Of a stretch of 64,000 nt of DNA, positions 11,920 through 63,696 are shown one piece after another. The stretch is taken from NCBI GenBank assembly GCA_041665485.1, contig JBAYIT010000001.1:73884-137883 (forward strand), in the 5' to 3' direction. The number at the start of each line of letters is the position of its first letter. Position 1 is the stretch's first letter. Position numbers and translations under genes: made by a program. Under the pieces are notes generated by a model. It was given only the letters and a program-made list of their open reading frames with translations. It was not told where the DNA came from and did not search any database. The DNA comes from Candidatus Shapirobacteria bacterium (GTDB taxonomy: Bacteria; Patescibacteriota; Microgenomatia; UBA12405).

Positions 11920-14097
11920 TCAAAAAAGTCCCAACTGGTTTTCACAATTAATTTTCTTTTTAGCTGGACTAAAAATTTTATTTAGTCCCAAAGTTCGGTA
12001 AGTTCGTAAACGTTTGAAATACATAATTTTAAGCATTGGTACTTGATCATCAAAATAGTCATAAATCGTAGCGTTGGTTTTTCCCTCAAAACTTCGTTGA
12101 ACTCTACCCACATATTGGATTAGTTTTCCTTTCCACGAAAACGGAAAAGCTAAAAATAGATGTGACACTGCCGGCCAATCAAAACCTTCGCCGATTAATT
12201 TACCCGTAGCAATTAGTAGTTAAAATTGTTTTTGGTTAATTCGTTTAGCAATTCGTTCTCTCTGCTTTTTAGTCATCACTCCAGTAGCTATGGCAGCCTG
12301 AACACCTTTAGTTTATTGTCGAATGAGATCCAGTAGTGTGTGACAGTGGTCGAGACGTTCAGTTAATACTAAGCACTTAGCTCCGGTATTTAACGCATCG
12401 ATAATATCGTCAGTAATTTGATTGTTACGATCAGGGTCGGATATAACTAATCGACAGGCTTCTTGAAAATCTTCTAATTTTACATTAGCTTTAAACTGTG
12501 TTTTTCGAGTGATTAAATCGGTTTTTACGATTTGGTTGGAGTTTTCACTGTTATCAATATTTTCCGTAGTTGCTTTGACTATTTGATAGCTAACATACAA
12601 AAACATCAGTTTTTCTAATTTATCTTTACGATAAGTGGTGGCGGTTAATCCTAAAACATGTTTAGAAGGGAATTGTCTGACGACAGTACTAAAAGTATTG
12701 GCCGGGGCATGATGGCATTCGTCAATAATAATTAACCCAAAATCATTTTTAATTTCATCAACCCCTCGTCTGGATAAAGTCATGTAGGAAGCAATGGTTA
12801 CTTTTTTACCAACACTCCATTTGTTATCGCCAATAATGCCTATATCAAGTTTTGAAAGAGAAAAATAATCAGTAATTCGTTTTTGCCATTGATGGAGCAG
12901 AGTGTTAGTGTGAACAATAATTAAAGTTTTTTGACCCAGTTTTTTCATTAACGCTAGAGCGACCATAGTTTTACCAAAACCAGGTTGAGCTTCCAAAATA
13001 ACTCGGTCATGAGGTAGTAACTGATGTAAAACTTGTTTTTGATCTTTACGAAGGATCAGTTTAGACGGGAAACGTACTTGTTTTGTAGTTACTCGATTAT
13101 CAACAGCCTCGATTTTTATCTGTTCTTTTTGACAAAATTTATTTAGTTTTTCCAAAAATCCCAAAGGAACTCCTATTCCATCTGGCAATCTCTCGAGGGT
13201 TTTAATAAATCGAGGGGTGTTCCAAGTGGAATAACCAAATCGTTCTTTGGTGTAAAAGTCAGGGTTGGGAAAATTTAATTCTTTTTTGAGGTATTTATAC
13301 AGTTTGTCGGGTAAATGAGTGCTAGGAATAAATATGTTTGACCCTAAAATCAATTTAGTTTCTTGATTTTGAGTTGTGGTAACAGGTAGCTCTTCAACAT
13401 TTTCATCGGGCTGGTTAGGCAGATCGTCGATTGTTTTATTGCTGGATAGTTGAAGATATTGATTGATTTCTTGTAAAGATGTTCTTCGAATTGACTGTAG
13501 ATATTGCCATTGATCAGGAATCTCTTGACCATCTGAGTTAATAAAAACGGTTGTGTTGTTTGTGACAAATTTCCCATTAAGTGGCAAACAAATTAAATTT
13601 CCATAACCTTTACCGGTATGTTCATCTTGGCTGGGAAACATTCGATCAAATGTTTTTCGATCTTGGACTCCTGCCTGGTTTAATAGTAATTTACCCATTT
13701 GTCGGGCTAGATGAGCCGGAATTTGCCCGTTAAAGAAAAACCAGACATGACCACCATTGCCCGATTTTGACCGTTCTATGGCACAAAATAGATCATTGTT
13801 AAAAGCTTTAATGGTTACTTTTTGAGCCAAAATCAACCAATCTGGTCCGTCAAAATCGATGGCTAAAAAAGTAGTGGTGTTGTCTGGAAATAATGGATAA
13901 ACGCCAATTACCTGTTTTCCGTCTAAGTGTGATTGAATAACCGAATCTGTCAATGCTAAGGGGCTTTGATTTAGTCGAAAAACTGGAGCGTAACCAGACT
14001 TCTTCTTCGGTAAATCTTCCCAATAACGGGCAAAGACATCGTCTCGGGTGTCAAAGAGAGAACGATAAAGTTTAATATTTTCAGCCGAAATGCTCAT
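11920..14097 (-). pseudogene. primase-polymerase (AEP) / SF2 DExH helicase fusion, disrupted by two in-frame TAA codons
   Basis: N-terminal AEP motifs 'LAIDFDG', 'SKSGNGGHVWFFF' and 'ICLPLNGK'. Helicase motif I 'QPGFGKTM', motif II 'DECHH', motif VI 'QYVGRVQR' and 'LLIATGKLIGEGFDWP'. A single frame runs from 14097 to 11920 and is interrupted only by TAA at 12313-12315 and 12220-12222. Confidence 0.6.
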
Positions 14098-23478: not shown

Positions 23479-23513
23479 CAGTTAACAGTTACGAGTTATC
23501 GGTTACGAGTTGA
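23479..23513. repeat. heptamer tandem array (CAGTTAA CAGTTAC GAGTTAT CGGTTAC GAGTTGA)
   Basis: Five degenerate 7-mers directly after the clpB stop. A near-identical array lies at 63362-63389. Confidence 0.6.
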
Positions 23514-23544
23514 TCTAGTTTGCGATAAAATAGCGAGTAGTTTA

Positions 23545-46901: not shown

Positions 46902-47463
46902 ACAGGAGAAGATTGAGAGGGTGATTGGGAATAGGAGAGAGGGGGTGGTGGTGCTGGAAGATATTCATGACCCACATAATGCGGCGGCGGTATGGAGAAG
47001 TTGTGATGCTTTTGGCTGGCAAAAAGTCTATTTGATTTTTGATAAAGAAATCCCTTTTAATCCAAAAAAGGTTGGTAAAGCCAGTTCGTCATCGGCCAAT
47101 AAATGGCTAACTTTTAAGATTTTTAAGTCGACAAAAGAATGTTTTGAAGAACTAAAAAAGGATGGCTTTGAAATTTACGCCACAGTACTTGATGAGGGAT
47201 CGAAGGGCTTGTGGGAAACAAAATTTAGAAACAAGAAAACAGCCATAGCTTTGGGAAACGAGCATAGAGGATTGTCGGAAACGGCAGTGAAATTGGCTGA
47301 CCGAAAAATTTATATTCCAATGAGAGGAATGGTGCAGAGTTTGAATTTGTCGGTGACGGCGGGGATAGTGTTGGCAGAGGCCGAAAGACAGAGAAATTCA
47401 GATCCTAGATCTTGGATGTTAGATCTTAGGGAAAAAGAAGAGTTGTTGAAGAGGTGGAGATAG
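46882..47463 (+). CDS. SpoU/TrmH-family RNA 2'-O-methyltransferase
   Basis: 'LEDIHDPHNAAAVWRSCDAFG', 'ALGNEHRGLS' and 'IPMRGMVQSLNLSV' SPOUT motifs. The C-terminus overlaps a heptamer array. Confidence 0.7.
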   Translation: MKEMENRQEKIERVIGNRREGVVVLEDIHDPHNAAAVWRSCDAFGWQKVYLIFDKEIPFNPKKVGKASSSSANKWLTFKIFKSTKECFEELKKDGFEIYATVLDEGSKGLWETKFRNKKTAIALGNEHRGLSETAVKLADRKIYIPMRGMVQSLNLSVTAGIVLAEAERQRNSDPRSWMLDLREKEELLKRWR

Positions 47464-50255: not shown

Positions 50256-51074
50256 ATGAAACAAATGGTGGTGAGAACAAAGATGGGTTTGGAGGAGATC
50301 GGGAAGACGAAGAATGATTTTGAGTATTGGTCGGCGAGGGAGTTGATGACAGTGCTGGGGTATATTGAATGGAGGAAATTTTGGGGTGTAGTGAAAAAAG
50401 CGAAGGTGGCTTGTAAAAATAGCGGATATGAGCCGAAAAACCATTTTGTCGGAGCCGCCAAAATGGTAGCAATTGGATCTGATACCATGAGGCGGTTAAG
50501 TGACTATTGGTTAACCCGTTATGCCTGTTATTTAATAGCCCAGAATGGGGATAGCCGGAAACCAGAGATTGCTTTTGCCCAAACTTATTTTGCGGTACAA
50601 ACAAGAAAACAGGAAATCAGGGAGGCGGATGAGAAACTGGTAAAAAGAATTGAAGCTAGAGAGAGGTTAAAAGAAACAGAAAGAAAAATTGAGGGAACGG
50701 TATATAAAAGAGGAATTCGAAGTTCGGCTGATTTTGCTAGCTTTAAAGATAAACATATTCGAGGTCTGTATGGAGGGATAGGGATTGCTAGTTTAAAAAA
50801 GAAAAGAAAGATTCCTAAAAATCGGGCCCTGGCAGACTTCGACAGCTTTTTGGAGTTAAGGGCGAAAGATTTTGCCCTAGCGATGACTGATCACAATATT
50901 AAAGACAAAAATTTGACTGGGAAGCCAAAACTAGAAAAAGAGGTTTATGAGAACAGCGTGGCAACTAGAAGAACAATGCTAAAACGTGGAATAATGCCGG
51001 AAAACTTAAAGCCGGAAAAAGATATCAAGGAGATTAAAAGCAGACTAGAGATTAAAGGCGAACTTGAAGGCTAG
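50256..51074 (+). CDS. DNA-damage-inducible protein D (DinD) homolog
   Basis: Collinear with E. coli DinD: 'YWSARELM..LGY', 'KMVAIGSDTMRRLSDYWLTRYACYLIAQNGDSRKPEIAFAQTYFAVQTR'. Confidence 0.6.
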   Translation: MKQMVVRTKMGLEEIGKTKNDFEYWSARELMTVLGYIEWRKFWGVVKKAKVACKNSGYEPKNHFVGAAKMVAIGSDTMRRLSDYWLTRYACYLIAQNGDSRKPEIAFAQTYFAVQTRKQEIREADEKLVKRIEARERLKETERKIEGTVYKRGIRSSADFASFKDKHIRGLYGGIGIASLKKKRKIPKNRALADFDSFLELRAKDFALAMTDHNIKDKNLTGKPKLEKEVYENSVATRRTMLKRGIMPENLKPEKDIKEIKSRLEIKGELEG

Positions 51075-51584
51075 GGTTAGCAAAAGAACAAGACTGACGG
51101 GGAAAACGACTTTGGCATAGGGAAAAGGAGCGTAGCCTAGCTTCTTTTTAGTGTTGAGATAGGTGATGTTGCCAATAAGCATGCCTAGGAAACCCAGGAC
51201 TTGGCCGAAAATAATTTTGTCAATGCCAAGCAGTTTATTAGCGGAGTGGCCAGTTTGGCCGGTGGTAATAAAATAAGCAAGGGTGGTTAGAAGTAAGATT
51301 AGAGAAAGAAATATGGGTTTGGAAAAAATTTCCAATTTCCAATTTCCAATTTCTAATTTATTCAGTTTGGGAGCCAGCCAGAAGGCGAGGGCGGTGTTGA
51401 GGGCGGAGATCCAGATACTAACTAGAAGATCGTCAATGCCGAGTTTTTTGGCAATTAACATTCCCCCACCGACAGTAACGATACATACGGGGCACTGCGC
51501 CCCTACGGGGGGCGCAAGAAATAAGAAATAAGAAATAAGAAATAAGAATGAAAACAAAAATATCATAGAGTTATTGTAATACAT
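51045..51584 (-). CDS. hypothetical membrane protein (start uncertain)
   Basis: Several TM segments. The N-terminal 50 codons run through simple repeats and GC hairpins, so the real start may be an internal Met. Confidence 0.35.
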   Translation of the reverse strand: MYYNNSMIFLFSFLFLISYFLFLAPPVGAQCPVCIVTVGGGMLIAKKLGIDDLLVSIWISALNTALAFWLAPKLNKLEIGNWKLEIFSKPIFLSLILLLTTLAYFITTGQTGHSANKLLGIDKIIFGQVLGFLGMLIGNITYLNTKKKLGYAPFPYAKVVFPVSLVLLLTLAFKFAFNL

Positions 51585-51600
51585 GTTCCCGAAGGCGCCT
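51573..51600. terminator. perfect 28-nt palindrome ATGTTCCCGAAGGCGCCTTCGGGAACAT (hairpin)
   Basis: Perfect inverted repeat 15 nt downstream of the Cys-rich mini-ORF stop, read on the minus strand. Confidence 0.5.
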
Positions 51601-51614
51601 TCGGGAACATCTGG

Positions 51615-52799: not shown

Positions 52800-52855
52800 T
52801 TGACAACAGTGTTAGAAGGGTCTAACATATGAGTGTTAGAAGAATCTAACTTATG
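52800..52855 (+). promoter_or_regulatory. promoter TTGACA-17-TAACAT overlapped by two tandem 24-nt palindromic operator repeats
   Basis: AGTGTTAGAAGGGTCTAACATATG and AGTGTTAGAAGAATCTAACTTATG. Each contains TGTTAGA-N4-TCTAACA. The second overlaps the XRE start codon. Confidence 0.6.
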
Positions 52856-53047
52856 AAAACGAAAATTAAAGAGATGAGGACCAAACTTGGGCTGACCCAG
52901 GAGCAATTGGCCGACAAGACGGGAGTGAGGCGGGAAACGATAGTGTTTCTGGAGCAGGGAAAATATATCCCCTCTTTAAAGTTGGCACATGATGTAGCGA
53001 AAATATTAAAGACAAAAATTGATTATTTATTTATTTTTGAGGATTAA
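52853..53047 (+). CDS. XRE-family HTH transcriptional regulator (64 aa)
   Basis: '[26 protein letters not shown]' HTH_3 motif. Confidence 0.7.
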
Positions 53048-54834: not shown

Positions 54835-55893
54835 CTAAATAGCCTCGAGGGTGCCGGAGACCATGCCCATCCAACAGGAGAAGTTGTAGACGCCTGGTTT
54901 GGTGACAGAGAACTCGCGAACAGAAGTGGTGCCGGGGACTAAATTGACGGGGCCGTCGAACAGTTGGCGGGCAATAACGGCGTTGGTGCAACCGCCGGTG
55001 CCAGTGTCAGTAATTTCCCAACGAACGGGAACATTGGCGCGGACTTTAAGACGAGAGGGAGAGTAGCCACGGGAAGAGGCGGACATTTTGAGGACTTGGA
55101 CGCCGTTGACGATGGGGGGTAAACCTTTGTTAGATCCTAGATTTTGGATGTTAGATCCTAGATTAATTTGTGGAGAAAAACCGAGGACTTTTAGTTGAGA
55201 AGAGAGATTAAAAAAGGCAAAGGCAATGACCAAAAGCCCGACAACTTGGGAGACAGAAGGCTTGGAGCTAAACTTTGAGCCTGAATAGCCGATGAGAAAA
55301 AGCGGAATAGCCGTGCCTAGGGCAAAAAAGCCCATAATTAGGGCGCCGGTAACAAAAGAGCCGGAGGCGAGGGCGAGAGATTGAGAAGTGAGAGTAAAAC
55401 CGCAAGGAAGAAAAAATGTTAGAGCGCCGATAAGAAAACTATTTTTGGTTAGTGATTGAGGAGAAAAAGACAAGCGGATAACTCTTAGACCAAGAATTTG
55501 GAGACCAAAAAGAATCATGGCAAGAGATACGATAATAGTTAGGATTGAACCAAGAGTAAAAGAAAGTCGGATAGACTGGCCAAGAAAACCCAGAAGACCG
55601 CCAAGAAGAAAAAAAGAAGTGAGCCTTCCGGTGTTAAATGAAAAACGATGGTGAGAAAGAGAAAGGGCAATGCCGCCAATTAGTCCGGCGCAAGTGGAAA
55701 AGCCAGCTAAGAGACCAAAGGGAAAGAAGGCTAGGGGGAGAGAATCTGGGGTGACACTAAAAAGAGAAAACAAGCTTGTTTGACTTAAAAAATAAACGGT
55801 AGTTAGAATTATTCCAACAATAATAAAAGAATTTATTAGATTGGCTGGTTTGGAGGGAGTATTTGAATGACAACAATCGCCTTGTGAAGACAT
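54835..55893 (-). CDS. polytopic permease with C-terminal cupredoxin-like (Cu-binding-like) domain
   Basis: N-terminal 'DCCHS'. TM Cys motifs 'FSTCAG' and 'LPCGF'. C-terminal 'TGGCTNAV...GVYNFSCWMGMVSG' resembles cupredoxin_1-type domains. Confidence 0.45.
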   Translation of the reverse strand: MSSQGDCCHSNTPSKPANLINSFIIVGIILTTVYFLSQTSLFSLFSVTPDSLPLAFFPFGLLAGFSTCAGLIGGIALSLSHHRFSFNTGRLTSFFLLGGLLGFLGQSIRLSFTLGSILTIIVSLAMILFGLQILGLRVIRLSFSPQSLTKNSFLIGALTFFLPCGFTLTSQSLALASGSFVTGALIMGFFALGTAIPLFLIGYSGSKFSSKPSVSQVVGLLVIAFAFFNLSSQLKVLGFSPQINLGSNIQNLGSNKGLPPIVNGVQVLKMSASSRGYSPSRLKVRANVPVRWEITDTGTGGCTNAVIARQLFDGPVNLVPGTTSVREFSVTKPGVYNFSCWMGMVSGTLEAI

Positions 55894-56636: not shown

Positions 56637-57367
56637 ATGAAGAAAATGGAGAAAGTGAAAAAGATTTTGGAGAAGACGGGAAAATATTGGATTGGATTTG
56701 TGGGAGATTCGATAACCAGTTGCGAATGGGTGCATCCAAACTGGCGAGAGATTGTGGAGTATGTGCTGAAAGAAGAATTACAACCGAAGTTTGCTGATTG
56801 GCGGGTTCCCTCCTGGGGAATTAGATGTTTTAATTATGGGTTTGACGGAGCAACAACTGGAGATATATTAAAACTAATTTCCAATTACCAATTACCAATT
56901 TCCAACCTCAACCTAGTGATTAGTTTAATGGGAGGAAATGACAGATTGTTTGGAATAAAACCGGAAGAATCAAAAAAAATATTGAGAAAATAATTAAAAA
57001 ACTTGATGAGAGTGGTGTTGAAGTGGTGTGGTGTACTTCAATTCCGGCTTATTATCGGGCAGACAAAAACAAAGAATACGAGCCTTATGCTAAGGCAACT
57101 ATGGCAATTGAAAAATCAATGGGTGTTCAGATAATTAATATGTTTGAAAAATACAAACAATTTGACCTAGATCGTTTTTTTACGTTTAAATCGGAGGAAA
57201 ACCCAGAAGAGAGAGTAAAGGAGGGAGATTTAGATTTTTGGCATCCGAATCAGCTGGGAAATGCTTATATTGCCAAAATAATTTTGGGAGAAGTGTTTGG
57301 GGTGGAATTTGACCCGGAAAAATATATTAAAGAAAATTTGGCAGGAGAAAAATATCCGGGGTATTAA
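56637..57367 (+). pseudogene. SGNH/GDSL hydrolase split by a frameshift at an A8 homopolymer (56976-56983)
   Basis: Block I 'GFVGDSIT' and block III 'GGND' are in the first ORF. Block V 'DFWHPN' is in the second. Adding one A in the A8 run fuses the frames (PEESKKNIEKIIKKLDESGVEVVWCTS). Confidence 0.6.
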
Positions 57368-58873: not shown

Positions 58874-58908
58874 TAGATCCTAGATGCTAGATCTTAGATC
58901 CTAGATAC
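58874..58908. repeat. heptamer tandem array (TAGATCC TAGATGC TAGATCT TAGATCC TAGATAC)
   Basis: Five 7-mers between the convergent rubrerythrin and HAD genes. Related arrays lie at 47401-47430 and 55134-55168. Confidence 0.6.
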
Positions 58909-59518: not shown

Positions 59519-60751
59519 TTAGAGGTCTACAGGGCGGGAACAAATGTAAGTGATTAGTTTAGGTTTAGAGGTCAATTTGGCAAGTAATTGCCGAATGCTT
59601 GATTCTCGGAACCGCTGAGATAGCTTTAGATATTCTTCGGGCTTAATCCACCGGCCGTCATTGAGGAGGTAGCCGGATAAGCTACTAGCAATTTTGTCGG
59701 GAGAATCGTAGACATTGTTGATTTGAAGGTTAAGATAATTGATGGCGCGGGAGAACTCGGCCTCCGGAATGGGGGTGGAGACAAATTTGGCAATTTCGGC
59801 ATTAATCAGATCGCGGATTTGGAGATACTTAGTGGGATCGGCGGAAAAAAATAAACCAAAGTAGCCGGCCAACGGATACATACCAGTAACGGTTTCGAGG
59901 CGATAAACCAAACCGTTGGCGGTGCGGAGGAGTTTGAATAAGCGAGAGCTTTGACTGTCACCAAGAAGGGTGCGAAGTAATGAGTATTCCATTTGTTGAA
60001 AAATAGTGAGTTTGGCATCACCATGGTTTGGCCAAAACCAATGGAAAACACTACTGTCACTGTGGGCTTCGGAAAAATAGAGGGTGGAGGGGTCGAAATG
60101 GGTAGGAGGAATGGTCTCTTGGACAGCTGATCCAAGATGATTGGACAAAATTTGGTCGATGTGTTTAAGTACTGTTTCGGTGGGTACATTGCCTGAAGCT
60201 CCAATAAAAATGTTTGGTTTAACAAAATAGTGGCGGTGGAGGTTTTGGAGGTCGGCGGAGGTTAAAGTTTTAACGTAGTCAGGTTGGCCCAGGCCATCGC
60301 GAATGTACGGGTGTTCGGGGCCGTAAAGTTTTTGGTCAATTTGCCGATGGTATTTAACGTAAGGGGAAGACCACTTGTCTTGATATTCTTGATCAATAAC
60401 TTTAATTTCGTTGGCTAAGTCCGGCGAATCAAGAAGGGGATGGAAAAGAAGTTCGTCGATTAGTTCGAGGACCTGGCTAAGAGATTGGTCTGGAGCCTTA
60501 AGGTGAATGTTGATTTCGGAGTTAGAGGTGCTAAGGCCGACGTTGATGCCATGGTCTTCAAGGTGCTGACGAAACAGCTCTGAAGATGGGTATTTAGCAG
60601 TACCAAAAGCAGAAATGGCGTGCTCCAAGAGATGAAAAGCCCCCCAAGAAGGACCGGGTTCATAGCGGGAGCCGGCTTTAACTCGAATACTAACGGCGAT
60701 AGTTTTAACTCCGGACAAAGGATAAACAACTAGGTGGCGATTGGCTGACAT
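59519..60751 (-). CDS. M16-family (pitrilysin/insulinase-like) zinc peptidase
   Basis: Inverted zinc motif 'HLLEH'. About 410 aa. Confidence 0.65.
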   Translation of the reverse strand: MSANRHLVVYPLSGVKTIAVSIRVKAGSRYEPGPSWGAFHLLEHAISAFGTAKYPSSELFRQHLEDHGINVGLSTSNSEINIHLKAPDQSLSQVLELIDELLFHPLLDSPDLANEIKVIDQEYQDKWSSPYVKYHRQIDQKLYGPEHPYIRDGLGQPDYVKTLTSADLQNLHRHYFVKPNIFIGASGNVPTETVLKHIDQILSNHLGSAVQETIPPTHFDPSTLYFSEAHSDSSVFHWFWPNHGDAKLTIFQQMEYSLLRTLLGDSQSSRLFKLLRTANGLVYRLETVTGMYPLAGYFGLFFSADPTKYLQIRDLINAEIAKFVSTPIPEAEFSRAINYLNLQINNVYDSPDKIASSLSGYLLNDGRWIKPEEYLKLSQRFRESSIRQLLAKLTSKPKLITYICSRPVDL

Positions 60752-62685: not shown

Positions 62686-63696
62686 ATGCAGGATAATGTT
62701 TACGATACGATCATTGTCGGATCAGGACCGGCGGGATTAACGGCGGCGATATATAATGTCCGATCGGCACTGAAAACAATTGTGGTTGCCGGAAACCAGC
62801 CAGGGGGACAATTGACACTAACAACAACGGTGGATAATTTTCCAGGATTTCCAGAAGGGGTTGGCGGGGTTAAGTTGATGATGGATACCCAGCAACAGGT
62901 GAGGAATTTAGGAGTGACTATTCGTAACAACTCTGTTACGAAAATAACCAATAACCAAAAAACAATTTCCAAACAAGTTCCAATAACCAATTTTCCAAGT
63001 TCCAAACTATTTGAAGTTGAATTGGATAATGGGGAAAAATTGCAGGCAAGGGCGGTGATTGTGGCAACGGGAGCGAGGGCAAAGTGGCTCCAGATTCCAA
63101 AAGAAAGAGAGTTAGTTGGGAAAGGAGTATCGGGATGCGCTACTTGTGATGGGATGTTTTTTAGGGACAAAACGGTAGTGGTGGTGGGCGGTGGAGAAAC
63201 AGCGGTAGAGGACGCGGAGTTTTTAGCTAGAATGGCAAAAAAAGTTTATATAATTCACCGAAGAGATGAATTAAGAACCAGCGCCTCGGCACAAAAAAGA
63301 GTGTTTGCAAATCCAAAAATTGAAATGGTGTGGAATAGTGAAGTGGTGGAAATCAATTGTCAGTTATCAGTTACGAGTTACGAGTTAGAAAAGTTACAAA
63401 ATATAAAAATAAAGAACAACAAAACTGGGGAAGAAAAGATAATGGAAATTGAGGGATTGTTTGTGGCGATTGGGAGGCAACCGGAGACGGAGTTTGTTAA
63501 GGATTTAGTGGAATTAAGAGATGAGGGTTATGTAGTGACTGGGAAAAATCCAGAATATCCGATGATGACAACACTGGAAGGAGTTTTTGCCGCCGGTGAC
63601 TGCATGGATTCTATATACAGACAGGCGATTGTGGCGGCAGGAGCGGGGGCAAGGGCGGCACTGGATGCGGAGAGATGGCTGAAGAATGGAAGTTAG
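62686..63696 (+). CDS. trxB: thioredoxin reductase
   Basis: 'IVGSGPAGLTAAIY', redox-active 'CATCDG', 'VVGGGETAVEDA' and 'GVFAAGDCMD'. Contains two embedded heptamer arrays. Confidence 0.85.
   Translation: MQDNVYDTIIVGSGPAGLTAAIYNVRSALKTIVVAGNQPGGQLTLTTTVDNFPGFPEGVGGVKLMMDTQQQVRNLGVTIRNNSVTKITNNQKTISKQVPITNFPSSKLFEVELDNGEKLQARAVIVATGARAKWLQIPKERELVGKGVSGCATCDGMFFRDKTVVVVGGGETAVEDAEFLARMAKKVYIIHRRDELRTSASAQKRVFANPKIEMVWNSEVVEINCQLSVTSYELEKLQNIKIKNNKTGEEKIMEIEGLFVAIGRQPETEFVKDLVELRDEGYVVTGKNPEYPMMTTLEGVFAAGDCMDSIYRQAIVAAGAGARAALDAERWLKNGS

What the first reader, a model, noticed from the sequence alone, without database searches (positions are those of the whole stretch)
56876..56913. AATTTCC/CAATTAC heptamer arrays embedded in three unrelated coding regions
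The array 56876-56913 (AATTTCC AATTACC AATTACC AATTTCC AACCTCA ACC) lies in the SGNH hydrolase gene. The array 51326-51356 (AATTTCC AATTTCC AATTTCT AATTTAT) lies in the minus-strand membrane-protein ORF. A longer, looser TTCCAA-rich tract at about 62950-63012 lies in trxB and gives a roughly 20-aa loop insertion relative to E. coli TrxB. The unit sequence is shared but the frame and strand differ. This points to insertion or expansion of a DNA-level repeat into ORFs.
Basis: seen in the sequence. Interest (0 to 1): 0.55.

Follow-up and report, generated by a model that had tools for sequence, protein, structure and literature searches.

The report
Heptamer repeat cassettes inside protein-coding genes
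Short DNA repeats built from 7-base units have been copied into surface loops of several unrelated genes in this tiny uncultured bacterium (Candidatus Shapirobacteria), where they are translated as extra, apparently functionless protein loops; it is a new variant of a known type of repeat, not a new system.

Summary
The window comes from a Candidatus Shapirobacteria (CPR/Patescibacteria) genome. Tandem repeats of period 7 are far in excess there: 6 observed against 0.23 expected. The same holds across about 770 kb of related Microgenomates DNA, with 51 period-7 arrays and at most 10 of any other period.

The three flagged tracts belong to one family, (CCAATNN)n. Each is an insertion or replacement relative to orthologs:
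- TrxB: +16 aa in a low-confidence beta-hairpin loop.
- Membrane protein: +8 aa.
- SGNH hydrolase: about 11 aa replaced, net +2.

The trxB tract is a 67-nt cassette. In relatives, a 61-nt stretch of it (93% identical) sits in a different TrxB loop, and its first 30 nt (100% identical) sit in the SGNH gene. The DNA is therefore copied between non-homologous sites. Orthologous sites carry different heptamer families, or GC-rich hairpins, in close relatives.

Unit number varies between near-identical strains at one intergenic array. The in-ORF arrays do not vary in length.

The best reading is STRR-like dispersed heptamer repeats, spread by slippage and ectopic copying and kept in ORFs only at permissive loops. 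The closest known kinds are cyanobacterial STRR and TAACTGA repeats and Rickettsia palindromic elements. I rate it a new variant of a known kind, of moderate interest.

The parts
56876..56913 (+). Family-1 heptamer array (AATTTCC AATTACC AATTACC AATTTCC AACCTCA ACC) inside the SGNH hydrolase gene. It encodes ISNYQLPISNLN, just before the GGND block.
   Evidence: Orthologs without the array read EKIDD--ILLVKPD. L088 and L090 carry AATAACC AATAACC AAATTCC AATAACC at the same place with the same length. DNA homology to L088/L090 ends at 56905.
56637..57367 (+). SGNH/GDSL hydrolase gene, split into two ORFs (56637-56993 and 57023-57367) by a 1-nt frameshift in the A8 run at 56972-56979.
   Evidence: The frameshift-corrected 243-aa protein aligns end to end with 237-243-aa orthologs. 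The Logan contig is identical.
51327..51359 (+). Family-1 array (AATTTCC x3, AATTTCT, AATTT), read on the minus strand as LEIGNWKLEI in a loop after the second membrane helix of a CPxC membrane protein.
   Evidence: It adds 24 nt / 8 aa relative to L088 and the family consensus. 34 nt are 91% identical to the TrxB loop-1 array of L011.
51045..51584 (-). Gene for a small membrane protein with a conserved CPxC motif and no Pfam match. It hosts two heptamer arrays.
62943..63009 (+). 67-nt family-1 cassette in trxB, encoding ITNNQKTISKQVPITNFPSSKL. It fills the beta-hairpin loop between strands 84-89 and 109-113.
   Evidence: +16 aa relative to solved TrxRs. pLDDT is below 50 at residues 93-105. 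It is 83% identical to the L092 cassette, which recurs in TrxB loop 2 of L073 (61 nt, 93%) and in SGNH of L088/L090 (30 nt, 100%).
62686..63696 (+). trxB (thioredoxin-disulfide reductase, 336 aa). It hosts two heptamer tracts.
63360..63387 (+). Family-2 array (TCAGTTA TCAGTTA CGAGTTA CGAGTTA) in trxB loop 2, encoding QLSVTSYEL. TCAGTTA is the reverse complement of TAACTGA.
   Evidence: +8 aa relative to solved TrxRs. L092 has a CAATCTT-family array of the same length here, and L073 has the family-1 cassette.
51516..51548 (-). Perfect array of 4.7 copies (AAGAAAT on +, ATTTCTT on the coding strand), encoding the hydrophobic core FLFLISYFLFL of the signal or first membrane segment of the membrane protein.
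   Evidence: L088 has a decayed array of the same length at this site.
55131..55163 (-). Family-3 (TAGATNN) cassette inside the DsbD-like/cupredoxin gene, encoding NLGSNIQNLGSN in the interdomain linker.
   Evidence: 26 nt are 96% identical to the intergenic copy at 47400-47429.
58874..58908 (.). Family-3 array (TAGATCC TAGATGC TAGATCT TAGATCC TAGATAC) between the convergent rubrerythrin and HAD genes. Its CTAG core puts stop codons in all frames on both strands, and it supplies the HAD stop codon.
   Evidence: L088 and L090 carry a family-2 (NNAGTTA) array at this same site.
47400..47429 (+). Family-3 cassette (AGATCCTAGATCTTGGATGTTAGATCTTAG), intergenic, upstream of the M3 peptidase gene.
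23480..23516 (+). Family-2 array (TCAGTTA ACAGTTA CGAGTTA TCGGTTA CGAGTTG), starting immediately after the stop codon of the ClpB-like gene.
   Evidence: 27 nt are 96% identical to the rubrerythrin/HAD spacer array of L090.

Best explanation
The tracts are copies of STRR-like dispersed heptanucleotide repeat families. Each family has a 5-base constant core plus 2 variable bases: (CCAATNN)n, (AGTTANN)n, (TAGATNN)n. They are common in Shapirobacteria and other Microgenomates.

Proposed mechanism:
1. Arrays grow, shrink and homogenise by replication slippage.
2. Array segments of about 25-70 nt are also copied between loci. The likely route is ectopic template switching or gene conversion at A/T-rich microhomology, carried out by the ordinary replication and recombination machinery.
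3. Seven and three share no factor, so three units (21 nt) encode seven residues whatever the phase. An array is therefore translatable whenever its units lack stop codons on the sense strand.
4. Selection then keeps in-ORF copies only at permissive places: beta-hairpin turns of TrxB, the loop before strand 3 of the SGNH fold, an inter-helix loop, a signal-peptide core and an interdomain linker. It also keeps only lengths that preserve the reading frame.
5. The encoded peptides are passengers with no required function. The arrays do act as local hotspots for replacement and recombination.

Shown: the existence of the arrays, the period-7 excess, families shared between sites, insertion relative to orthologs, identical cassettes at non-homologous sites, cassette replacement at orthologous sites, unit-number polymorphism at one intergenic array, and location in low-confidence loops.

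Inferred: slippage and template switching as the mechanisms, and neutrality of the peptides.
For: Period-7 excess: 6 arrays against 0.23 expected in the window. In 771 kb of Microgenomates loci there are 51 unique arrays, against at most 10 for any other period.

Insertions relative to orthologs: TrxB, membrane protein, SGNH.

Copying between sites:
- A 30-nt string containing an irregular unit is identical in SGNH (L088, L090) and TrxB loop 1 (L092). The longest common substring in the null is at most 14 nt.
- A 61-nt cassette is 93% identical between TrxB loop 1 of L092 and TrxB loop 2 of L073, although the two genes are only 73% identical.
- Further irregular cassettes are shared by non-orthologous sites: window 47400 and 55132; window 23484 and the L090 spacer; L092 loop 2 and an L090 intergenic spacer.

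Turnover at fixed sites:
- TrxB loop 2 carries family 2, the CAATCTT family or family 1 in relatives.
- TrxB loop 1 carries a GC-rich hairpin in L093.
- The rubrerythrin/HAD spacer carries family 3 in the window and family 2 in L088/L090.

Slippage and homogenisation:
- A 28-nt (4-unit) indel separates near-identical strains at an AAACAAG array.
- The window has a perfect array where L088 has a decayed one of equal length.

Selection filter:
- 60% of arrays lie in long ORFs, against 93% of random windows.
- Orthologous in-ORF arrays keep their length.
- The AATAACC cassette is open in only one frame.

Permissive loops: the AlphaFold2 model places both trxB tracts at beta-hairpin turns, with pLDDT below 50 at residues 93-105.

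Recombination boundary: homology to L088/L090 ends at 56905, the last base of the array. Segment-wise identities are incongruent: N-terminus 94% to P0125 and 77% to P0121; middle 34% to P0125 and 70% to P0121.
Against: - No empty-site/filled-site pair close enough to define insertion boundaries, target duplications or microhomology was available, so the copying mechanism is untested.
- Arrays of the same low-complexity unit can resemble each other by convergence. Only the cassettes with irregular internal units are informative, and these are few.
- L090 and L092, and likewise L088 and L093, are assumed to come from one genome only because they share a sample.
- No length polymorphism was seen at any of the window's own arrays.
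- The membrane-protein array could have expanded in place from a local AAATT-rich sequence rather than being imported.
- Neutrality of the peptides is assumed, not measured.
- The coincidence of the recombination boundary with an array end is a single case.
Confidence: 0.68

Rival explanations
1. The arrays are ordinary microsatellites that arose independently in place at each locus by replication slippage. Nothing is transferred between loci. Shared units reflect only base composition and the need to avoid stop codons.
For: - Heptamer SSRs are over-represented in many bacteria, and polymerase slippage has been proposed as the cause (PMC4692102).
- Unit-number polymorphism is seen.
- The membrane-protein site has an AAATT-rich proto-repeat in L088.
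- Units are diverse: 32 canonical units among 54 arrays.
Against: - 30-61-nt cassettes with irregular internal units are 93-100% identical at non-homologous sites.
- The variant third unit AAATTCC differs from AATAACC at 3 positions, more than is needed to remove the stop codon.
- Whole arrays are replaced by another family at equal length in close relatives.
Confidence: 0.14
2. The cassettes are very small mobile elements moved by a dedicated enzyme, such as a transposase, reverse transcriptase or primase-polymerase. They would be analogous to the small dispersed repeats of Nostoc or the Rickettsia palindromic elements.
For: - The same cassette occurs at three non-homologous sites.
- Families co-occur within a genome: both TrxB loops of L009 carry AATTACG, and both loops of L018 carry the same hairpin.
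- A hairpin is nested inside a heptamer array in L072.
- An AEP primase-helicase gene is present in the window, but nothing links it to the arrays.
Against: - The cassettes have no terminal inverted repeats and no secondary structure (fold z-scores +0.78 to -0.74).
- No target-site duplication could be defined.
- Copies have variable extent (30, 61 and 67 nt), as expected from template switching rather than excision and integration.
- No candidate enzyme is linked to them, and viral contigs hold no copy.
Confidence: 0.13
3. The in-ORF arrays are phase-variation switches (contingency loci). Gain or loss of one 7-nt unit shifts the frame and turns the gene off or on, as in E. coli K1 neuO.
For: - The unit length is not a multiple of 3.
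- The membrane-protein gene carries two near-perfect arrays (96% and 100% matches, 4.7 copies each).
- neuO shows that in-ORF heptanucleotide repeats can work this way (PMC13001214).
- Unit number does vary at an intergenic array upstream of an mscL-like gene.
Against: - The sequences are identical across three assemblies, and no length variants occur in the 90% protein clusters.
- The arrays are short and imperfect in trxB and SGNH.
- trxB is a core housekeeping gene.
- Orthologous in-ORF arrays keep the same length across species.
Confidence: 0.06
4. The tracts are selected at the protein level as functional loops or motifs, and the DNA periodicity is incidental.
For: The trxB loop-1 tract keeps its length, and 17 of 24 residues, among 85%-identical orthologs.
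Against: - The same DNA unit gives unrelated peptides on the two strands.
- Identical families occur in intergenic DNA.
- The loops are less conserved than the rest of the protein and are swapped for unrelated sequences in close relatives.
- Confidence in the structure model is low at these loops.
Confidence: 0.03

Closest known systems
STRR (short tandemly repeated repetitive) heptanucleotide sequences of heterocystous cyanobacteria (Mazel et al. 1990; from my own knowledge, and cited as the Calothrix heptanucleotides in PMC4692102)
   Same: Tandem 7-nt units. Several sequence families, each dispersed over many loci of one genome. No known function.
   Different: Different unit sequences and a different phylum (CPR). 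STRR are described as mainly intergenic. Here most arrays lie in ORFs and are translated inside conserved enzymes.
TAACTGA direct repeats of Beggiatoaceae, Cyanobacteria and Bacteroidetes (MacGregor 2015, PMC4679880)
   Same: Heptamer direct repeats of 2-6 or more copies. In reverse orientation they are translatable (LSVISYQ). The window's family 2 contains TCAGTTA, the exact reverse complement, and encodes QLSVTSY in trxB.
   Different: TAACTGA repeats lie mostly a few nucleotides upstream of start codons, and in ORFs mostly at protein ends. Here they sit mid-domain in surface loops, several other unit families coexist, and the host phylum is new.
Rickettsia palindromic elements (RPE; Ogata et al. 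2000; from my own knowledge, mentioned in PMC10969869)
   Same: Repeated DNA inserted in frame into unrelated protein-coding genes, translated, and tolerated at surface-exposed positions.
   Different: RPEs are 100-150 bp and palindromic. These cassettes are 25-70 nt, heptamer-periodic and unstructured.
Small dispersed repeats (SDR) of Nostoc (Elhai et al. 2008, Genome Res 18:1484; from my own knowledge, paper not held)
   Same: Very small repeats with no coding capacity of their own. They are found nested in heptamer arrays and hairpins, and their mobility is inferred from comparison of orthologous sites.
   Different: SDR units are 21-27 nt with defined sequences, occur in cyanobacteria and are largely intergenic. 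Only one nested case was seen here (L072).
Phase-variable heptanucleotide repeat of neuO in E. coli K1 (PMC13001214)
   Same: A heptanucleotide tandem repeat inside an ORF, translated as a heptad peptide, with the frame kept only when the unit number is a multiple of three.
   Different: neuO has 3-53 perfect units that vary between cells. The window's arrays have 4-5 often imperfect units and show no variation.
Tandem repeats of Borg elements that create disordered protein regions (PMC9879509)
   Same: DNA-level tandem repeats that arise within ORFs and add low-complexity, probably disordered protein segments.
   Different: Borg repeat units in ORFs are multiples of 3 nt, arise locally and are perfect. 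Here the units are 7 nt and belong to dispersed families.

Membership tests
Simple sequence repeat (microsatellite) evolving by slippage | Head-to-tail tandem copies of a short unit | tested here: met
   TRF reports 4.3-5.3 copies at 83-100% matches at 51327, 51516, 56876 and 58870.
Simple sequence repeat (microsatellite) evolving by slippage | Unit-number polymorphism between closely related genomes | tested here: inconclusive
   Seen at an intergenic AAACAAG array in relatives: 9.3 against about 5 units with near-identical flanks. Not seen at any array of the window. Reads were not available.
Cyanobacterial STRR | Heptanucleotide unit, several families, each dispersed at many loci | tested here: met
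   The window holds three families, each at 2-3 sites. The pattern holds across the clade.
Cyanobacterial STRR | The specific STRR unit sequences, and occurrence in heterocystous cyanobacteria | tested here: not met
   The units here are CCAATNN, AGTTANN, TAGATNN and AAGAAAT. The organism is Candidatus Shapirobacteria. The STRR unit sequences themselves are recalled from memory.
TAACTGA direct repeats | Unit TAACTGA in direct repeats | tested here: met
   Two exact TCAGTTA units (the reverse complement) at 63360-63373, followed by CGAGTTA x2. Related units occur at 23480-23516. The match is only partial.
TAACTGA direct repeats | Position within a few nucleotides upstream of start codons | tested here: not met
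   The window's copies lie inside trxB and directly after a stop codon.
Rickettsia palindromic elements / REP / MITE-like elements | In-frame presence inside unrelated protein-coding genes | tested here: met
   Present in SGNH, TrxB (two loops), the membrane protein (two sites) and the DsbD-like linker.
Rickettsia palindromic elements / REP / MITE-like elements | Palindromic or hairpin structure, or terminal inverted repeats | tested here: not met
   DNA folding of the four window tracts gives z-scores from +0.78 to -0.74. The GC-rich hairpins that occupy the same TrxB loops in relatives would meet this feature.
Rickettsia palindromic elements / REP / MITE-like elements | Target-site duplication, or an associated transposase such as a RAYT | not testable with these tools
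   No sufficiently close empty-site/filled-site pairs were available. Only 64 kb of the genome was seen.
Phase-variable contingency locus | Repeat tract in an ORF or promoter whose unit length is not a multiple of 3 | tested here: met
   7-nt units inside ORFs.
Phase-variable contingency locus | Tract length varies within or between populations, giving ON and OFF alleles | tested here: not met
   The three assemblies are identical. The 90% clusters hold only start-codon variants. Orthologs keep the length. Read-level data were not available.

The most novel reading that the evidence does not exclude
CPR bacteria may harbour an active, enzyme-driven copy-and-paste system for the smallest known mobile DNA: 25-70-nt heptamer-periodic cassettes, together with a companion family of GC-rich hairpins. 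These would be written repeatedly into the same permissive loops of core enzymes, continually remodelling protein surfaces in genomes otherwise regarded as streamlined.
Probability: 0.13. Interest if true: 0.8.

Novelty: new variant of a known kind. Interest (0 to 1): 0.55.

Why it matters
Patescibacteria/CPR genomes are regarded as minimal and streamlined. Finding STRR-like heptamer repeat families there extends a poorly understood class of bacterial repeats to a new phylum and a new genomic niche. Until now that class was known mainly from cyanobacteria, Beggiatoaceae and Xanthomonas, and mainly from intergenic DNA. Here most copies sit inside coding sequences of conserved enzymes, and different cassettes replace one another at the same two TrxB loops.

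Three practical consequences follow:
- The tracts explain lineage-specific low-complexity insertions in CPR proteins. Such insertions confuse alignments, structure models and annotation.
- They mark recombination and indel hotspots. One mosaic gene boundary lies exactly at an array end.
- They provide a tractable test of how non-triplet repeats become coding sequence. TrxB has many orthologs with empty, heptamer-filled or hairpin-filled loops, which makes it well suited to that test.

Tried and rejected
- A genome-contig scan with the M16 peptidase found only distant relatives at 23% identity, so GTDB representatives gave no synteny.
- Rfam matched only four tRNAs in the window.
- Searching the protein database with the cassette peptide failed. 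A 44-aa concatenate gave 3 candidates, none of which scored. The spread of the cassette across protein families therefore could not be measured.
- A scan of viral contigs for the 21-mer AATAACCAAATTCCAATAACC gave 0 hits.
- The Elhai 2008 paper could not be read.
- I looked for GC-rich hairpin elements in the window itself. There are only 6, and just one is relevant (51496-51516), so the hairpin class seen in TrxB loops of relatives is not prominent in this genome.
- I considered an orientation bias of family 1 relative to GC skew: 12 of 13 copies lie on the G-rich strand. I rejected it as evidence because it is confounded with gene orientation and with stop codons on the reverse strand.
- Assembly artefact and chance were rejected.
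- A functional protein motif was rejected.
Full report
**What is in the sequence**

The three tracts exist as described, all written on the + strand.
- SGNH gene, 56876-56913: AATTTCC AATTACC AATTACC AATTTCC AACCTCA ACC.
- Minus-strand membrane-protein ORF, 51327-51359: AATTTCC x3, AATTTCT, AATTT.
- trxB, 62943-63009: a looser tract, AATAACC AATAACC AAAAAAC AATTTCC AAACAAG TTCCAAT AACCAAT TTTCCAA GTTCCAA.

All three can be written (CCAATNN)n.

They are translated in three ways:
- ISNYQLPISNLN in SGNH.
- LEIGNWKLEI in the membrane protein, read from the opposite strand.
- ITNNQKTISKQVPITNFPSSKL in TrxB.

The motif is over-represented: 10 hits against 3.5 expected, 7 of them in these tracts. Period-7 tandem repeats dominate the window: 6 observed against 0.23 expected in first-order Markov simulations, while other periods give 0-3.

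**Source and reliability**

The exact TrxB protein is named by NCBI as coming from a Candidatus Shapirobacteria MAG. The window lies on a 411,674-bp ENA contig. A Logan contig (SRR6484324) and a JGI contig (3300037810) are 100% identical to the window across the SGNH and trxB tracts.

The tracts are 30-67 nt long, shorter than a sequencing read, so an assembly artefact can be set aside. No length variant of any host protein exists in the 90% clusters; only start-codon differences appear.

**Are they insertions?**

TrxB:
- In an alignment of 81 loci, outgroups and many Microgenomates have short loops at two positions.
- The window carries +16 aa at loop 1 and +8 aa at loop 2 relative to solved thioredoxin reductases.
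- An AlphaFold2 model (mean pLDDT 80) places both tracts at beta-hairpin turns. Loop 1 lies between strands 84-89 and 109-113, with pLDDT below 50 at residues 93-105. Loop 2 lies between strands 218-223 and 239-244.

Membrane protein:
- The window has +24 nt / 8 aa relative to the syntenic relative L088 and the family consensus.

SGNH:
- The gene is split by a 1-nt deletion in an A8 run (56972-56979).
- Once corrected, the 243-aa product aligns end to end with 237-243-aa orthologs.
- The array replaces about 11 residues (KLISNYQLPISNLN against the consensus EKIDD--ILLVKPD), for a net gain of only 2.

**A lineage-wide phenomenon**

Across 771 kb of Microgenomates loci there are 51 unique period-7 arrays of at least 3.5 copies. 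No other period exceeds 10.

The window holds at least four families, three of them at two or three sites each.

| Family | Unit | Sites in the window |
|---|---|---|
| 1 | CCAATNN | 51327, 56876, 62943 |
| 2 | AGTTANN | 23480 (directly after the ClpB-like stop codon); 63360 (in trxB) |
| 3 | TAGATNN | 47400 (intergenic); 55131-55163 (DsbD-like/cupredoxin gene, encoding NLGSNIQNLGSN in the interdomain linker); 58874-58908 (between convergent genes) |
| 4 | AAGAAAT | 51516-51548 (perfect 4.7-copy array) |

Supporting calls: 5, 70, 87, 88, 91.

- The family-3 array at 58874-58908 has a CTAG core that gives stop codons in every frame on both strands.
- The AAGAAAT array encodes the hydrophobic core FLFLISYFLFL of the membrane protein's first segment.

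About 60% of arrays lie in long open frames, against 93% of random positions. Arrays are therefore selected against in genes but are far from excluded.

**Evidence that the DNA is copied between sites**

This is the main new result.

- The syntenic relatives L088 and L090 (about 80-87% DNA identity) carry AATAACC AATAACC AAATTCC AATAACC at the SGNH site.
- The TrxB loop-1 cassette of L092, which comes from the same sample as L090, begins with the identical 30 nt, including the irregular third unit. The longest common substring under the null is at most 14 nt.
- L073 has a TrxB gene only 73% identical to that of L092. It carries 61 nt of this cassette, at 93% identity, in loop 2 rather than loop 1.

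An all-against-all comparison found further irregular cassettes at non-orthologous sites:
- Window 47400 and window 55132 (26 nt, 96%).
- Window 23484 and the rubrerythrin/HAD spacer of L090 (27 nt, 96%).
- L092 TrxB loop 2 and an intergenic spacer of L090 (36 nt, 92%).
- Window 51323-51356 and TrxB loop 1 of L011 (34 nt, 91%).

**Turnover at fixed sites**

Among TrxB genes 82-85% identical to the window's:
- Loop 2 is family 2 in the window, L093 and L094, but a CAATCTT-family array of exactly the same length in L092.
- Loop 1 is the family-1 cassette in the window, L092 and L094, but a GC-rich hairpin in L093.

The rubrerythrin/HAD spacer holds family 3 in the window and family 2 in L088/L090.

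Across 70 unique TrxB sequences, enlarged loops are heptamer-periodic, GC-rich hairpins (for example TCCCCCTT TGAC AAGGGGGA, read as SPFDKGD), or decayed. In L072 a hairpin is nested inside a heptamer array.

**Slippage and homogenisation**

- Near-identical strains differ by four units (28 nt) at an AAACAAG array just upstream of an mscL-like gene.
- The window's perfect ATTTCTT array corresponds to a decayed array of identical length in L088.
- The SGNH array differs from that of L088 by the same substitutions repeated in several units.
- In-ORF arrays keep their length between species. This is expected if only 21-nt steps are tolerated.

**A recombination boundary**

DNA homology between the window and L088/L090 ends at 56905, the last base of the SGNH array, and resumes at about 57221. 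Protein identities by segment are incongruent:

| Segment | Identity to P0125 | Identity to P0121 |
|---|---|---|
| N-terminus | 94% | 77% |
| Middle | 34% | 70% |

The gene is therefore mosaic, with a junction at the array. This is a single case and is only suggestive.

**Mechanism**

The best reading is STRR-like dispersed heptamer repeats. They expand and homogenise by slippage and are copied between loci by ectopic template switching or gene conversion. In ORFs they are retained only where the sense strand lacks stop codons, the frame is preserved and the protein tolerates a loop.

- The cassettes have no secondary structure, so they fail the palindrome criterion of RPE, REP and MITE elements.
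- Phase variation is unlikely for trxB and SGNH and unsupported for the membrane protein.
- A dedicated enzyme cannot be excluded.

**Comparison with known systems**

- Heptamer SSR excess in bacteria, and the slippage hypothesis for it, are already in the literature (PMC4692102).
- TAACTGA heptamer repeats, whose reverse complement is the window's family-2 unit, are described in Beggiatoaceae, Cyanobacteria and Bacteroidetes. They are mostly upstream of start codons or at protein ends (PMC4679880).
- neuO shows a phase-variable in-ORF heptanucleotide repeat (PMC13001214).
- Rickettsia palindromic elements are the classical case of repeats inserted in frame into genes (my own knowledge).

What differs here:
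- The phylum.
- Mid-domain positions in core enzymes.
- Several unit families coexisting in one genome.
- Cassette swapping at the same loops.

My literature searches found no description of this in CPR/Patescibacteria.

**Verdict**

This is a new variant of a known kind of repeat, of moderate interest.

Noticed in passing
window 56972-56979: The SGNH hydrolase gene is interrupted by a 1-nt deletion in an A8 run, which forms the slippery sequence A_AAA_AAA. The frameshift is identical in the Logan contig. Orthologs are intact. The gene is either a pseudogene or is rescued by -1 ribosomal or transcriptional slippage.
   Followed up: partly
window 63360-63387: A second heptamer array lies in trxB loop 2 (TCAGTTA x2, CGAGTTA x2). 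TCAGTTA is the exact reverse complement of the TAACTGA repeat described in Beggiatoaceae and cyanobacteria.
   Followed up: yes
window 55131-55163: A TAGATNN-family cassette lies inside the DsbD-like/cupredoxin gene, encoding NLGSNIQNLGSN in the interdomain linker. It is 96% identical over 26 nt to the intergenic copy at 47400-47429.
   Followed up: yes
window 58874-58908: This array has a CTAG core that places stop codons in all three frames on both strands. It lies between the convergent rubrerythrin and HAD genes and supplies the HAD stop codon. Relatives carry a different heptamer family at the same spot.
   Followed up: partly
L016, L018, L060, L093 and others, at TrxB loops 1 and 2: GC-rich hairpin repeats, such as TCCCCCTT TGAC AAGGGGGA read as SPFDKGD, occupy the same two TrxB loops in many Microgenomates. 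Some have a second hairpin nested inside, and in L072 a hairpin is nested in a heptamer array.
   Followed up: partly
window 51496-51516 and about 51585-51612: Two GC-rich hairpins flank the start of the membrane-protein gene. TGCGCCCC TACGG GGGGCGCA encodes LAPPVGAQ next to the conserved CPxC motif. GTTCCCGAAGG CG CCTTCGGGAAC lies just upstream of the first ATG. Both are also present in L088.
   Followed up: no
window 59519-60751: The M16 peptidase gene is absent from the syntenic relatives L088 and L090. The indel is flanked by the 7-nt direct repeat TTATTTT, which suggests deletion through microhomology.
   Followed up: partly
window 1-64000, switch at about 12000-14000: GC skew is very strong, about +0.3 from 14 kb onward, and persists where genes lie on both strands. 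The sign changes near 12-14 kb. The gene at 12313-14097 (minus strand) encodes an AEP-TOTE primase domain fused to a helicase. No dnaA gene was seen there.
   Followed up: partly
L054 783-847, compared with L055 4417-4453, L057 513-546 and L058 5446-5479: An AAACAAG array about 15 nt upstream of an mscL-like start codon has 9.3 units in one strain and about 5 in three near-identical strains. It is a candidate expression-tuning repeat.
   Followed up: partly
window 51045-51584: This small membrane protein family has an invariant CPxC motif and no Pfam match. It is widespread (280 representatives with E up to 0.001) and sits near the DsbD-like and TrxB genes. It may be a membrane thiol-disulfide protein.
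   Followed up: no
window 52808-52856: A 24-nt unit (AGTGTTAGAAGAATCTAACATATG) is present in two tandem copies at 88% matches, in the intergenic region upstream of 53050.
   Followed up: no
L075 5764-7855: An outgroup contig (TrxB 46% identical) holds a dense cluster of eight different heptamer arrays, including AGTGACC, TTTTCAA, AAATTAA, AAATTGA and CTAATCA, within 2 kb.
   Followed up: no
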